From: a virus
Strand: one strand, 5' to 3'
DNA: 12,547 bases
Virus record (IMG/VR): IMGVR_UViG_3300037742_000189
A program made the translations under genes and the position numbers. Each line of letters begins with the position of its first letter. The stretch's first letter is position 1. Shown in pieces: positions 3,435-4,883 of the stretch. The notes under the pieces were generated by a model. That model made no database searches and was not told the origin of the DNA. It saw nothing but the letters and a program-made list of their open reading frames with translations.

Positions 3435-3815
3435 ATGGAGGCGGCTGTCGTTCTGAACCATGAGTGGAAGCCGATCGCCTTCCATACCCCCGAAGGTCGA
3501 ACCGTAGGGAGCTTGCCCGATAGCCAATCACTATGGGAAACCCTATGGGAGAATCGCAAGGCACTACTCGGCGTGGCGCATAGCCACCCGGGGGGAGGTA
3601 TCCCCGGCCCCTCACATACGGATGTGACGACGTTCTCTGCCATCGAGCGCGGACTCGGTGTAGGTCGTCTCCTATGGCCCATCGTTACGGCTGACGCGGT
3701 TCGAGTCTTCAGTTGGCACGGGCCAGGCCTCCACGACTACAAAACGAAGGACCTGGTTGTCACGGTCGACATGTTGTCGGCCTGGGTCCCCGAACTCCTC
3801 CAACGATCCGAATAG
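3435..3815 (+). CDS. JAB/MPN (JAMM) family metallopeptidase, 126 aa
   Basis: RBS AGGGAGGG directly upstream. JAMM signature HSHPGGGIPGPSHTD (HxH…S-x2-D) with upstream Glu residues. Small stand-alone JAB of the kind paired with Ubl/E1 genes. Confidence 0.75.
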   Translation: MEAAVVLNHEWKPIAFHTPEGRTVGSLPDSQSLWETLWENRKALLGVAHSHPGGGIPGPSHTDVTTFSAIERGLGVGRLLWPIVTADAVRVFSWHGPGLHDYKTKDLVVTVDMLSAWVPELLQRSE

Positions 3816-3829
3816 AAAGGAAGGTGGAT

Positions 3830-4099
3830 ATGGTTGCTGCTGCCATTGGGTTGGCCGAGGCGGTCTTGAACATCACGTACGACGGGGAGCAGGGCGAGTT
3901 GCCCGATCCCGTTCTCTATGACGCCTCGGACGCAGACATCATTCGATGGGCGACGGAAGCCGTGCGCGGCGGTATCCCAGGGATCACCGCGAGGGCGGAC
4001 GCGAACCTGGCCGGCTACGTCGTCCAGCGATTTGGTTCGACAGCGGACCTGCCCAACCGCGTCGTGTGTCGACCGAAGACCGAGTACGGTGGACGATGA
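3830..4099 (+). CDS. small ubiquitin-like (beta-grasp?) protein, 89 aa, C-terminus …TEYGG-R
   Basis: Strong RBS (AAAGGAAGGTGGA) and ATG at 3830, 14 nt after the JAB stop. Ends with a Gly-Gly followed by a single Arg. Sits between a JAB peptidase gene and an E1-like gene. The Ubl fold itself is inferred from context and the GG tail, not from sequence similarity. Confidence 0.5.
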   Translation: MVAAAIGLAEAVLNITYDGEQGELPDPVLYDASDADIIRWATEAVRGGIPGITARADANLAGYVVQRFGSTADLPNRVVCRPKTEYGGR

Positions 4100-4241
4100 C
4101 CCCCGCCACTCAAACAACCGGGGAGCGTCAGGGAAACCTGGTGTCTCCCACTAAAGTCCGGACTTCCGAGGACCGGGCACATCGCCCAAAGGCGCCCTCG
4201 CGTAGGGCTCGTTTCGACCAACTGGTCGCGGAGATTGGACC

Positions 4242-4883
4242 ATGGCTACTCGAGCACCGACAACAGAAAGCCCGGACATGCTGCAAAGAATCGTCGTCGT
4301 CGGAGTAGGCGCGCTCGGCTCGCATGTCGTGCAGTTCCTACGGAACGTCGACCTCCAGGCCATCAACGGGCGGTTGTATAAGCTCGTCGCCGTGGACTTC
4401 GATAGGATCGAGCAGAAAAACGTGTTCGCCCAATTTCACGCCAAGACCGGGATTGGGAAGAACAAGGCCCTGAGTCTTCAGCAGACCGTTAACTTCCTCT
4501 TTGGGGTCAAGATCGAGGCCGTCCCTCACAAGGTTACCGCGGACAACGTCCAGACCCTGCTCGGCGGCGCGGCTCTAGTGATCGACTGTTTGGACAACGG
4601 CGCCTCGCGCGTGCTCATTCAAACCGTCGCCCGGACGTTCGAGATCCCGTGCTTGCATGGGGCTCTGGCTGCCGACGGAACCGTTGGCGGAGTCATCTGG
4701 GATAACAAATTCGAGATCGACTTCGAGAGCGAGGGCGGCGGAGCCACGTGCGAGGACGGTCAGCATCTACCGTTCATCTCTATGATAGCCTCGTTCATCG
4801 CGCGCGCGGCTCAAGAGTTTCTGATGACAGGTCGCCAGCTCTCGTTTCAGGTATTTTCGAAGAGCGCGCCGATTTCTTTGTAG
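4242..4883 (+). CDS. E1-like ThiF/MoeB/HesA family adenylyltransferase (ubiquitin-activating-like), 213 aa
   Basis: Rossmann motif VVVGVGALGS. ThiF/E1 motifs VAVDFDRIEQKNVFAQ (D-D-x-E-x-N-x-x-Q) and VIDCLDN…R…PCLHGALAADGTVGGV. GGAG RBS 7 nt upstream. Confidence 0.8.
   Translation: MATRAPTTESPDMLQRIVVVGVGALGSHVVQFLRNVDLQAINGRLYKLVAVDFDRIEQKNVFAQFHAKTGIGKNKALSLQQTVNFLFGVKIEAVPHKVTADNVQTLLGGAALVIDCLDNGASRVLIQTVARTFEIPCLHGALAADGTVGGVIWDNKFEIDFESEGGGATCEDGQHLPFISMIASFIARAAQEFLMTGRQLSFQVFSKSAPISL

What the first reader, a model, noticed from the sequence alone, without database searches (positions are those of the whole stretch)
3435..4883. Compact JAB - Ubl - E1 (ThiF-like) triad embedded in the RNP operon
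A stand-alone JAMM peptidase, an 89-aa protein ending in Gly-Gly plus one residue, and a minimal E1-like adenylyltransferase sit consecutively with 14-nt and 142-nt spacers. This is the hallmark of prokaryotic ubiquitin-like conjugation or sulfur-carrier systems. Its placement between a Ro60-like gene and Y-like RNAs / MVP is unexpected. It could modify a component of the particle, or make a thiocarboxylate for tRNA-like RNA thiolation (cf. TtuB/TtuC-type tRNA 2-thiolation systems). It could also be an anti-defence or defence module on a phage.
Basis: partly seen in the sequence, partly recalled or inferred. Interest (0 to 1): 0.7.

Follow-up and report, generated by a model that had tools for sequence, protein, structure and literature searches.

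The report
Phage ubiquitin-like system beside tRNA genes
The three adjacent genes do encode a trimming protease, a small ubiquitin-like protein and its activating enzyme, and they belong to a conserved, apparently undescribed five-gene module, flanked by tRNA-like RNAs, that sits inside the tRNA gene clusters of giant phages and in some myxobacterial genomes.

Summary
Window 3435-3815, 3830-4099 and 4242-4883 encode a JAMM peptidase with a complete active-site motif, an 89-aa protein predicted to be a beta-grasp, and a minimal ThiF/MoeB-type E1. The "Gly-Gly plus one" is a coincidence. Across 78 orthologues the conserved end is RPKTP[FY]-G, followed by 0 to 54 variable residues. Cassettes without the JAB gene always have a tail-less Ubl, so JAB most likely matures the Ubl.

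The triad is part of a five-gene cassette in fixed order: a MIDAS-vWA protein (window 494-2419), an OB-fold/coiled-coil protein with an invariant Cys (2482-3423), then JAB, Ubl and E1. It recurs in about 80 loci from 130-620 kb phage contigs and Myxococcota genomes. It is usually embedded in same-strand tRNA arrays and followed by a conserved, covarying tRNA-like RNA. The MVP gene is not a conserved partner. Ro60 kinship of the vWA protein is only remotely supported.

Most likely this is an E2-less, or non-canonical-E2, Ubl conjugation system acting on an RNA-binding complex. Sulfur-carrier use is the main rival. No curated family or held paper describes it. I rate it a new variant of a known kind, interest about 0.7.

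The parts
494..2419 (+). vWA641: 641-aa protein with a conserved N-terminal region of about 430 aa of unknown family and a C-terminal von Willebrand A domain with an intact MIDAS motif (DxSxS at D443/S445/S447). It is the first gene of the conserved cassette.
   Evidence: Pfam VWA_2 matches in 54/54 members and TROVE in none. The MIDAS residues are invariant. A profile search against PDB hits only vWA domains. The gene is present upstream of the triad in about 70 loci. hhalign against phage Ro-like proteins gives 85.8-96.6% over the full length but 5-23% for the N-terminal domain alone.
2482..3423 (+). p313: 313-aa protein with an N-terminal OB-fold region, a long Arg/Glu-rich helix (about residues 158-203) and a C-terminal alpha/beta domain with an invariant G-x-C-L loop (Cys274). 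It is the second gene of the cassette and a candidate Ubl acceptor or non-canonical E2.
3435..3815 (+). JAB/JAMM (MPN+) metallopeptidase, 126 aa. It is the predicted maturase that removes the tail after the Ubl's conserved Gly, and it may also deconjugate.
   Evidence: Pfam Prok-JAB. H49, H51, S60 and D63 are invariant in 72/72 and E2 is present in 69/72. The gene is absent only from cassettes whose Ubl ends exactly at the Gly: 7/7 against 17/71, Fisher p=1.3e-4, with at least four independent losses.
3830..4099 (+). Ubl: 89-aa beta-grasp protein of a new sequence family. The conserved C-terminal motif is R81-P-K-T-x-[FY]-G87. The predicted cleavage or activation site follows G87 (codon 4088-4090). 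The tail is 'GR' (4091-4096).
4100..4241 (.). 142-nt Ubl-E1 spacer, specific to this lineage. It is not a general feature of the cassette.
   Evidence: It is about as conserved versus L001 as the neighbouring sequence (92% mean column identity over an alignment that also includes flanking coding sequence). Predicted folding is not better than shuffles (z -0.86). In other loci the Ubl-E1 gap ranges from 1 nt to several kb, sometimes with homing-endonuclease inserts.
4242..4883 (+). Minimal E1-like adenylyltransferase of the ThiF/MoeB superfamily, 213 aa (about 190-200 aa in most relatives). It has an invariant crossover-loop Cys170 (T-C-E-D-G). It lacks the N-terminal RYxRQ helix, the canonical Arg of NLxRQ and the C-terminal CxxC zinc motifs.
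   Evidence: Pfam ThiF at 77 bits. The profile aligns to MoeB 1jw9 residues 33-213 at 7e-15, with C170 on MoeB's 'TC'. All NCBIfam equivalog scores are far below cut-off, for example ThiF 72 against 275 and UbaA 58 against 450.
4884..5250 (+). Conserved structured non-coding region directly after E1. It holds two tRNA-like T-arm hairpins (4951-4967 and 5193-5209), each preceded by TTACACGCA. It belongs to a family of tRNA-like RNAs that follow the cassette in many loci.
   Evidence: Alignment with L001 and L003 has 88% mean column identity. Fold z-score is -3.5. Orphan T-arms are 12-fold enriched in the 1 kb after E1 over 88 loci. 19 of 22 predicted pairs show compensatory changes. Covariance model hits in the window are 4882-4979 at 35 bits and 5123-5288 at 43 bits.
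5250..5326 (+). tRNA-Met (CAT), the first canonical tRNA gene after the cassette.
   Evidence: ARAGORN and Rfam.
5513..5584 (+). tRNA-Arg (ACG).
   Evidence: ARAGORN and Rfam. A tRNA-Arg(ACG) also follows E1 by 39 nt in the Paraliomyxa genome, L089.

Best explanation
The triad is the enzymatic core of a self-contained ubiquitin-like modification module of five proteins: a MIDAS-vWA protein, an OB-fold/coiled-coil/Cys-domain protein, a JAB peptidase, a Ubl and a minimal E1. The module travels together with tRNA-like RNAs.

Proposed mechanism:
1. The Ubl is made as a precursor with a variable tail ('GR' in this window). The JAB metallopeptidase cuts after the conserved ...T-x-[FY]-Gly and exposes the Gly carboxylate. 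This step is inferred, strongly, from the co-variation of tail and JAB.
2. The minimal E1 binds ATP-Mg and adenylates that Gly. It probably then takes the Ubl as a thioester on its invariant crossover-loop Cys170. This is inferred from conserved residues.
3. With no canonical E2 in the cassette, the activated Ubl passes either directly to a lysine, as in archaeal SAMPylation or Thermus TtuB conjugation, or through the invariant Cys274 of the 313-aa partner acting as a non-canonical E2-like relay. This step is speculative.
4. The substrate is most likely one of the two invariable partners or a protein they recruit. Conjugation would therefore switch or assemble an RNA-binding complex that handles the co-encoded tRNA-like RNAs or tRNAs during giant-phage infection. 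This is inferred from gene linkage only.
For: The three proteins are real and look catalytically competent. The JAMM motif is invariant. The E1 keeps GxGxxG, D52, K75, D115/D118, R123 and Cys170 in 83-84 of 84 sequences, and Cys170 aligns with the MoeB 'TC' crossover-loop position. The Ubl is predicted to be a beta-grasp.

The Ubl has the signature of a protein activated at its C-terminal Gly. G87 is present in 77/78 and F/Y86 in 78/78, followed by 0-54 unconserved residues, some carrying CxxC knuckles. JAB is lost only where the Ubl already ends in Gly, in at least four independent losses.

The five genes keep order and strand in about 80 loci. These span E1 identities down to 35% and cover phage contigs and a cultured myxobacterium. 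No sixth conserved protein exists, and inserts are homing endonucleases.

The single aromatic-Gly end, rather than Gly-Gly, and the absence of any sulfur-using enzyme or rhodanese domain argue for conjugation over sulfur transfer. That Gly-Gly is typical of ThiS, MoaD and Urm1, and F-G of Atg8 and Atg12, is established knowledge, not a test run here.

The RNA link rests on several results. p313 has OB folds of the IF1/S1 type. The cassette lies inside tRNA arrays in 29 of 49 loci scanned. EF-Tu, Pth2 or SpoU genes are neighbours in some loci. A covarying tRNA-like RNA follows E1.

Against: The E1 lacks both arginines that contact ATP phosphates in MoeB. The NLxRQ Arg is Ser or Ala in 83/84, and the N-terminal helix is absent. 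Adenylation is therefore plausible but unproven.

No target is identified and nothing here shows a conjugate. JAB dispensability in seven loci shows that deconjugation is not essential. The tRNA link could reflect co-location in a phage 'translation island' rather than function.
Confidence: 0.5

Rival explanations
1. Sulfur-carrier system. JAB exposes the Gly and E1 adenylates it. A persulfide, on E1 Cys170, on p313 Cys274 or from a host desulfurase, then converts it to a thiocarboxylate. That thiocarboxylate donates sulfur to the neighbouring tRNAs or tRNA-like RNAs (TtuB/TtuC- or Urm1/Uba4-like) or to a small molecule (QbsCDE- or CysO/Mec-like).
For: The closest solved and curated relatives of the E1 are the sulfur-carrier activators MoeB, Uba4, ThiF and UbaA. 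JAB-processed sulfur carriers with short tails exist (QbsE/QbsD and CysO/Mec, from established knowledge). The cassette is embedded in tRNA arrays. Invariant cysteines exist in E1 and p313.
Against: The Ubl ends in [FY]-Gly, not the Gly-Gly of the sulfur carriers I know of. E1 has no rhodanese domain. No PP-loop ATPase (TtuA/NcsA/MnmA type), ThiG, MoaE, CysM or desulfurase is conserved in or next to the cassette. The two conserved partners are a MIDAS-vWA protein and an OB-fold protein, which are not sulfur-transfer folds.
Confidence: 0.2
2. Conflict system aimed at the other party. The module would be a phage anti-defence device, and in Myxococcota a defence island. It would conjugate the Ubl to host or phage proteins, as Bil does to tail fibres or Cap2 does to CD-NTases. 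The vWA and OB-fold proteins would act as substrate adaptors or sensors. This rival concerns the target, not the chemistry.
For: All characterised bacterial E1/JAB conjugation systems (type II CBASS, Bil, and by genomic context Bub) act in phage-host conflict (PMC10557695, PMC11601596). The E1 gives weak PADLOC hits to Cap2 E1 domains, best 7e-11. The cassette is mobile. In Paraliomyxa it is an isolated island next to a YhgA-type transposase. In L115 it sits next to a type IIG restriction-modification gene. It is often interrupted by homing endonucleases.
Against: No PADLOC model matches the system as a whole, and there is no CD-NTase, E2 or effector gene. Placement inside tRNA arrays on the same strand in dozens of giant phages points to a role in the phage's own RNA or translation programme.
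Confidence: 0.15
3. The Ubl or the E1 acts on RNA rather than protein. One version has the Ubl acyl-adenylate attacked by a ribose hydroxyl of the co-encoded tRNA-like RNA, which is aminoacylation-like chemistry. The other has the E1 working directly on an RNA base as TcdA does, with the Ubl serving as a MIDAS-binding adaptor like the Ytm1/Rsa4 UBL domains on Rea1/MDN1.
Against: I know of no precedent for Ubl-RNA esters made by an E1 alone. MoeB, ThiF and Uba4 are much closer relatives than TcdA. The co-variation of tail and JAB shows that a free Gly carboxylate matters, which a purely non-covalent adaptor would not need.
Confidence: 0.08

Closest known systems
Archaeal SAMP / UbaA / HvJAMM1 and Thermus TtuB / TtuC / JAMM systems (E2-independent Ubl conjugation with dual sulfur-carrier use)
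   Same: A small beta-grasp protein, a stand-alone MoeB/ThiF-type E1 with a crossover-loop Cys, a JAMM peptidase, no E2 or E3, and a historical link to tRNA. The NCBIfam UbaA model is the second-best hit for the E1.
   Different: The E1 is much shorter, at about 190-213 aa. It has no zinc CxxC motifs, no N-terminal Arg helix and no NLxRQ Arg. The Ubl ends in [FY]-G with a variable tail, not Gly-Gly. The obligatory partners are a MIDAS-vWA protein and an OB-fold/Cys-domain protein. It is carried by giant phages. Scores are far below family cut-offs (58 against 450 bits).
JAMM-processed sulfur carriers: QbsE/QbsD/QbsC (quinolobactin) and CysO/Mec/MoeZ (cysteine synthesis)
   Same: A Ubl is made with extra residues after the activating Gly, a JAMM peptidase removes them, and a MoeB-like E1 adenylates the exposed Gly. 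The gene order is compact.
   Different: Those operons contain the sulfur-using enzymes and a rhodanese-bearing E1, and their carriers end in Gly-Gly. None of these features is present here.
Bil, type II CBASS (Cap2/Cap3) and Bub bacterial ubiquitination-like systems
   Same: An E1, a Ubl (or CD-NTase tail) and a JAB-type or other peptidase lie in one operon on mobile DNA. Conjugation goes through an activated C-terminal Gly or Ala. There are weak PADLOC hits to the Cap2 E1 domain.
   Different: All three have a recognisable E2, which is fused to E1 in Cap2. No E2 is detectable here. There is no CD-NTase or effector. The Ubl family is unrelated in sequence. The context is tRNA arrays rather than defence islands.
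PRTRC (ParB-related, ThiF-related cassette) of conjugative elements
   Same: A mobile multi-gene cassette built around a ThiF-family protein. The NCBIfam PRTRC_ThiF model gives a sub-threshold hit of 51.5 against 144.75 bits.
   Different: None of the other four proteins gave any NCBIfam hit, including to any PRTRC family model. No ParB is present.
Ro60 (TROVE + MIDAS-vWA) / Y RNA ribonucleoproteins, including phage 'Ro-like RNA binding proteins'
   Same: The architecture of the first cassette protein matches: a large N-terminal region followed by a MIDAS-vWA domain. There is a co-linear profile match to phage Ro-like proteins at 96.6% probability over the full length. tRNA-like non-coding RNAs are encoded next to it, as for bacterial YrlA.
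   Different: No Pfam TROVE hit in 54 members or in distant homologues. The N-terminal domain alone reaches only 5-23% probability. tblastn with vWA641 finds none of the 357 phage Ro-like genes that Ro60 finds. Rfam Y RNA models do not match. In the two phages whose flanks I fetched, the Ro-like gene is not accompanied by E1, Ubl or JAB.
Rea1/MDN1 MIDAS domain with the UBL domains of Ytm1/WDR12 and Rsa4/Notchless
   Different: The resemblance is fold-level only. Those UBLs are not activated at a C-terminal Gly and have no E1 or JAB.

Membership tests
E1-like adenylyltransferase superfamily (ThiF/MoeB/Uba) | Rossmann-like fold with a GxGxxG nucleotide loop | tested here: met
   Pfam ThiF at 77 bits. 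G21, G23 and G26 are present in 84/84. The profile aligns to MoeB residues 33-213 at 7e-15.
E1-like adenylyltransferase superfamily (ThiF/MoeB/Uba) | Conserved ATP/Mg ligands: ribose Asp, Lys (MoeB K86) and Asp (MoeB D130) | tested here: met
   D52, K75 and D118 are present in 84/84 and align to the MoeB positions.
E1-like adenylyltransferase superfamily (ThiF/MoeB/Uba) | Arginines contacting the ATP phosphates (MoeB R73 in NLxRQ, and R14 in the N-terminal helix) | tested here: not met
   The R73 position is Ser or Ala in 83/84. The family starts 2-3 residues before the GxGxxG strand, so the N-terminal helix is absent. R55 and K59 are nearly invariant and may substitute; that is inference.
E1-like adenylyltransferase superfamily (ThiF/MoeB/Uba) | Cysteine in the crossover loop (ThiF C184, MoeB C187, UbaA C188 position) | tested here: met
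   C170 is present in 83/83 within T-C-E-D-G and aligns with the MoeB 'TC'.
JAMM/MPN+ metallopeptidases | E...HxH...S..D zinc and catalytic motif | tested here: met
   H49, H51, S60 and D63 are present in 72/72 and E2 in 69/72. There are 8 residues, not 7, between the second His and the Ser. Pfam Prok-JAB scores just above its cut-off.
Ubiquitin-like (beta-grasp) modifiers | Beta-grasp fold | tested here: met
Ubiquitin-like (beta-grasp) modifiers | Conserved C-terminal Gly, exposed directly or after removal of a variable tail | tested here: met
   G87 is present in 77/78. Tails are 0 residues (24 cases), 1 residue (23), 2 residues (11) and up to 54.
Sulfur-carrier Ubls (ThiS, MoaD, CysO, QbsE, TtuB, Urm1) | C-terminal Gly-Gly | tested here: not met
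   The penultimate residue is Phe or Tyr in 78/78. The window's second Gly lies in the variable tail.
Sulfur-carrier Ubls (ThiS, MoaD, CysO, QbsE, TtuB, Urm1) | Co-encoded sulfur donor or acceptor enzyme (rhodanese, desulfurase, PP-loop ATPase, ThiG, MoaE or CysM) | tested here: not met
   No such Pfam domain appears in the window's genes or in the neighbourhoods examined. No additional conserved gene family occurs in or around about 85 cassettes.
Bil / type II CBASS / Bub conjugation systems | E2 (UBC-like) protein or domain with a catalytic Cys or Ser | tested here: inconclusive
Bil / type II CBASS / Bub conjugation systems | Match to the system's curated models (PADLOC) and presence of a CD-NTase or effector | tested here: not met
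   Only the E1 domain gives weak Cap2 hits, and JAB hits are at E of 1e-3 or weaker. There is no CD-NTase.
Ro60/TROVE ribonucleoprotein | TROVE module N-terminal to a MIDAS-vWA domain | tested here: inconclusive
   The vWA and MIDAS features are met. TROVE gives no Pfam hit in 54 members or 10 distant homologues. hhalign gives 96.6% over the full length and 23% (P 9e-4) for the N-terminal domain alone.
Ro60/TROVE ribonucleoprotein | Adjacent Y RNA (Rfam Y_RNA or YrlA-type) | tested here: not met
   Rfam finds only the two tRNAs at E of 1 or better. A different, tRNA-like RNA family is present instead.
PRTRC cassette | PRTRC companion proteins and ParB alongside the ThiF-family protein | tested here: not met
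   The NCBIfam PRTRC_ThiF hit is sub-threshold, and there are no NCBIfam hits for the other four proteins.

The most novel reading that the evidence does not exclude
The activated Ubl is not put on a protein at all. It is esterified to the co-encoded tRNA-like RNAs, or to tRNA 3' ends. The E1-made Gly-adenylate would be used in aminoacylation-like chemistry, with the OB-fold protein and the Ro-like MIDAS-vWA protein holding the RNA. That would make it a protein-RNA conjugation system carried by giant phages.
Probability: 0.07. Interest if true: 0.95.

Novelty: new variant of a known kind. Interest (0 to 1): 0.72.

Why it matters
Known bacterial ubiquitin-like conjugation systems (type II CBASS, Bil, Bub) are host defence systems that include an E2.

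This module would be a widespread system of a different kind. Its 313-aa partner alone has 799 distinct homologue clusters. It is carried mainly by giant phages, it has no recognisable E2, and its E1 is among the smallest seen. It is tied to a MIDAS-vWA protein, an OB-fold protein and a new tRNA-like RNA, all inside phage tRNA islands.

If the Ubl modifies an RNA-binding complex or the translation apparatus, that would link ubiquitin-like signalling to phage control of tRNA biology. It would also offer a minimal E1/Ubl pair for mechanistic and evolutionary study.

The cassette is present in a cultured organism, Paraliomyxa miuraensis SMH-27-4, so the question can be tested experimentally.

Tried and rejected
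1. MVP as a partner is rejected. MVP and the GH5-like gene accompany the triad only in the window and in L001-L003.

3. vWA641 as a Ro60 orthologue is rejected at the orthologue level. A remote relationship stays open.

4. A Y RNA is not found by Rfam.

5. The 142-nt Ubl-E1 spacer as an RNA element is rejected. It shows no significant fold and is lineage-specific.

6. A sixth conserved protein gene is rejected. Clustering of all extra ORFs in and around the cassettes found only homing endonucleases and sporadic genes.

7. Searches for a known phage relative gave little. Megablast of the whole window against 50,697 phage records found nothing. tblastn found one uncultured virus, Rctr197k, with the gene labelled hypothetical.

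8. Eight literature searches and four papers checked in detail gave no description of the cassette. Burroughs and Aravind 2016 (NAR 44:8525), which is the most likely place for a prior mention, is not held in the library.
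Full report
**1. The observation**

They are 3435-3815 (126 aa), 3830-4099 (89 aa, ending EYGGR) and 4242-4883 (213 aa), separated by 14 and 142 nt.

- **JAB.** The 126-aa protein passes the Pfam Prok-JAB threshold narrowly, at 26 bits against 25. In an alignment of 72 orthologues the JAMM residues H49, H51, S60 and D63 are invariant, and the N-terminal Glu is present in 69.
- **E1.** The 213-aa protein is a clear ThiF-family member at 77 bits. 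With a family profile its best solved relative is E. coli MoeB at 7e-15, followed by Uba4, ThiF, TcdA, SAE2, UBA5, MccB and Cap2.

**2. What the C-terminus really is**

Twelve database homologues, and then 78 orthologues taken from related loci, show that the conserved end is R-P-K-T-P-[FY]-G. R81 is present in 78/78, F/Y86 in 78/78 and G87 in 77/78. After that Gly comes a stop codon in 24 cases, one residue in 23, two residues in 11, and up to 54 unconserved residues in others. Some of the longer tails carry CxxC knuckles.

The window's "Gly-Gly-Arg" is therefore the conserved Gly plus a two-residue tail, 'GR'.

Seven cassettes lack the JAB gene altogether, with only about 25-175 nt between the flanking genes. 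All seven encode a Ubl that stops exactly at the Gly. Among JAB-containing cassettes, 17 are tail-less and 54 are tailed (Fisher p = 1.3e-4). The seven are not one clade. Their nearest relatives by E1 and vWA identity mostly carry JAB, so there were at least four independent losses.

This is the pattern expected if JAB's indispensable job is to expose the Gly carboxylate.

**3. The E1**

The family is mostly 190-202 aa. The following residues are conserved in 83-84 of 84 sequences:

- GVGALGSH, the nucleotide loop
- D52, K75 and D115-C-L-D118-N, where K75 and D118 align with MoeB K86 and D130
- R123 and H139
- T169-C170

The profile alignment places C170 on the 'TC' of MoeB. From established knowledge, this is the crossover-loop cysteine that corresponds to ThiF C184 and marks where canonical E1s insert their catalytic-Cys domain.

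The family lacks three things. The Arg of NLxRQ is Ser or Ala in 83/84. The whole N-terminal helix that supplies the second Arg in MoeB is missing. The C-terminal CxxC zinc motifs are also missing.

No NCBIfam equivalog is reached: ThiF scores 72 against 275 bits, UbaA 58 against 450, and PRTRC_ThiF 51.5 against 144.75. It is a minimal, distinct E1 clade. Adenylation is plausible but not shown.

**4. The real unit is five genes, not three**

Scans with the E1 alignment returned 61 loci on IMG/VR viral contigs, mostly 130-620 kb. They also returned about 25 family loci in GTDB genomes. Nearly all of those are Myxococcota MAGs, plus the isolate Paraliomyxa miuraensis.

I searched all loci with the window's proteins. 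In about 80 of them the same five genes appear in the same order and orientation:

1. a vWA protein of about 640 aa (window 494-2419)
2. a protein of about 313 aa (window 2482-3423)
3. JAB
4. Ubl
5. E1

MVP, the GH5-like gene and the other window genes are found only in the three closest loci (L001-L003).

Clustering every other ORF in and around the cassettes found no sixth conserved protein. It found only several HNH and other homing-endonuclease families, which explains the variable gaps. A divergent version with E1 at 35% identity (L065/L066) still has a Ubl ending ...AAFG-stop, an E1 with ...ATC... and a p313 with ...GVCL....

In the Paraliomyxa genome the cassette is flanked by YcaO, halogenase and nitroreductase genes and a YhgA-type transposase. 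That makes it a cellular island there, not a prophage.

The only GenBank phage record with the vWA protein is the uncultured Virus Rctr197k, where the gene is labelled "conserved hypothetical".

**5. The two partners**

*vWA641* has an invariant MIDAS motif (DxSxS) and a well-conserved N-terminal region of about 430 aa.

- Pfam TROVE is not hit by any of 54 members at E of 1 or better.
- It is also not hit by 10 distant homologues of 516-613 aa recovered in a whole-library phmmer search.
tblastn with vWA641 finds none of them.
- Profile-profile comparison with eight Ro60 sequences gives 85.8% probability, rising to 96.6% when the distant homologues are added. The alignment is co-linear over about 290 columns, reaching about 200 residues upstream of the vWA domain.
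- The N-terminal parts alone give only 5% and then 23% probability.

I read this as an architecture shared with Ro60, possibly through remote homology, but not demonstrated.

In that loop G272, C274 and L275 are invariant in 79/79, and D285, L290 and P294 are invariant just after it. The order of elements and the G-I-C-L...S-x-P pattern recall an E2 core. Every test I could run was negative or non-significant. I could not search with the isolated domain. The E2 idea stays a hypothesis.

**6. RNA context**

ARAGORN found the cassette inside large same-strand tRNA arrays in most phage loci. Of 49 loci scanned, 29 have five or more tRNA genes within about 8 kb, with up to 34 in L009 and L016. Only 7 have none.

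A tRNA gene also follows E1 within 40-50 nt in Myxococcota genomes, as in L089, L084 and L069. Neighbours in individual loci include EF-Tu directly after E1 (L115), Pth2 (L113) and a SpoU methylase (L004).

The 367 nt after the window's E1 has several notable properties:

- Its alignment with L001 and L003 has 88% mean column identity.
- It folds better than every shuffle, with z = -3.5.
- It holds two T-arm hairpins that no tRNA finder calls.

Over 88 loci, such orphan T-arms are 12 times denser in the kilobase after E1 than elsewhere in the same loci, at 1.63 against 0.136 per kb. Seventeen examples align into a unit of about 155 nt with two T-arms, each preceded by TTACA[AC]GC, plus a helix and an inner hairpin. 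19 of the 22 predicted pairs show compensatory changes.

A covariance model finds 60-138-bit copies in roughly 35 loci. They usually start 85-200 nt after the E1 stop and often come several in a row. None occurs in six control loci without the cassette. The window scores 43 and 35 bits. Hits below about 30 bits overlap ordinary tRNA pairs and mean nothing. Rfam finds no Y RNA.

The locus is therefore RNA-linked, but through a new tRNA-like RNA rather than a recognisable Y RNA.

**7. Mechanism**

Shown by sequence and comparison:

- a competent-looking JAMM site
- a beta-grasp with an invariant terminal Gly behind a disposable tail
- JAB-tail co-variation
- an E1 with most adenylation ligands and the crossover-loop Cys
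- obligatory linkage to a MIDAS-vWA protein and an OB-fold/Cys-domain protein
- linkage to tRNA genes and a tRNA-like RNA

Inferred chain of events: JAB trims the precursor. E1 adenylates G87 and probably forms a thioester on C170. The Ubl then goes either directly to a lysine, as in SAMPylation or TtuB conjugation, or through p313 C274. The target is one of the partners or something they bind, which would control an RNA-handling complex.

I prefer conjugation to sulfur transfer for three reasons. The end is aromatic-Gly, as in Atg8 and Atg12, rather than Gly-Gly. No sulfur-donor or sulfur-acceptor enzyme is linked. The partners are binding-type proteins. Sulfur-carrier use remains a serious rival at about 0.2. 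A conflict-system reading, in which the target is in the other organism, is at about 0.15. RNA-directed chemistry is a long shot.

**8. Comparison and novelty**

In chemistry and parts list, the closest systems are SAMP/UbaA/HvJAMM1, TtuB/TtuC, QbsCDE, CysO/Mec/MoeZ, and the E2-containing Bil, Cap2/Cap3 and Bub systems (PMC1779556, PMC10557695, PMC11601596).

This module shares the E1-Ubl-JAB logic and differs in several ways:

- the E1 is stripped down
- the Ubl is a new sequence family with an [FY]-G end
- no E2 is recognisable
- there are two new obligatory partners
- there is an associated tRNA-like RNA
- it resides in giant-phage tRNA islands

No curated family (Pfam, NCBIfam, PHROGs, PADLOC) names the Ubl, p313 or the vWA protein's N-terminal domain. 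No held paper describes the cassette. One relevant paper, Burroughs and Aravind 2016, could not be read, so prior mention cannot be excluded.

I class it as a new variant of a known kind.

Noticed in passing
window 4884-5250 (T-arm hairpins 4951-4967 and 5193-5209); also L004 10662-10815, L039 8659-8813, L010 6084-6234 and many more: A conserved, covarying tRNA-like non-coding RNA family lies directly after the E1 gene, often in several tandem copies. Its unit has two T-arms, each preceded by TTACA[AC]GC, plus a helix and an inner hairpin. ARAGORN and Rfam do not recognise it. Orphan T-arms are 12-fold enriched in the kilobase after E1, and 19 of 22 predicted pairs show compensatory changes.
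   Followed up: partly
window 7467-9974 (+): An 835-aa major-vault-protein homologue (Pfam MVP_shoulder 6.7e-29, Vault_3, Band_7) lies on what looks like a giant-phage contig. It is shared only with the closest relatives L001-L003 (851 aa) and is not part of the conserved cassette.
   Followed up: partly
L009, L012, L016, L105 and others (whole loci); window 5250-5326 and 5513-5584: The cassette sits in the middle of very large same-strand tRNA arrays, with up to 34 tRNA genes per 16 kb. Several of the tRNAs nearest the cassette have A34 anticodons that are unusual for bacteria: Asp-ATC, Val-AAC, His-ATG, Ser-AGA/ACT, Asn-ATT, Gly-ACC, Phe-AAA, Ala-AGC and Leu-AAG. A deaminase-like ORF family (HAE...PCxxC) occurs in or after the cassette in 7 loci.
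   Followed up: no
L115 10657-11826 (GCA_000763215.1); L113 12901-13284; L004 14049-14666: Translation-related genes lie next to the cassette in individual loci. A full EF-Tu gene sits directly after E1, a Pth2 peptidyl-tRNA hydrolase is nearby, and so is a SpoU-type RNA methylase.
   Followed up: no
Ubl genes of L052, L055, L058, L056, L043 and L059 (coordinates): Some Ubl precursors carry long C-terminal extensions of 14-54 aa after the conserved Gly. Several have CxxC zinc-knuckle-like motifs or Lys- and Glu-rich repeats, which recalls eukaryotic ubiquitin fused to ribosomal proteins.
   Followed up: no
window 5627-6172 (-) and 6172-7479 (-): An HNH endonuclease (181 aa) abuts a 435-aa protein with an N-terminal coiled coil and a weak GH5 cellulase-like domain. 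HNH and other homing endonucleases also interrupt the cassette in many related loci.
   Followed up: partly
L106 2968-4632 (Sinorhizobium phage Phosso); L111 2986-4641 (Agrobacterium phage Atu_ph07): In these cultured 470-490 kb phages, a genuine Ro60 orthologue ('Ro-like RNA binding protein') is encoded between the tail sheath and tail tube genes. That is an odd place for an RNA-binding protein.
   Followed up: no
L065 1571-4060 (+): In the divergent variant of the cassette, an additional 829-aa protein with its own DxSxS vWA motif lies directly upstream.
   Followed up: no
L020 13878-14238 (+): A phage-borne tmRNA gene (tag peptide ANDNSIADRLVA) lies within the tRNA array that surrounds the cassette.
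   Followed up: no
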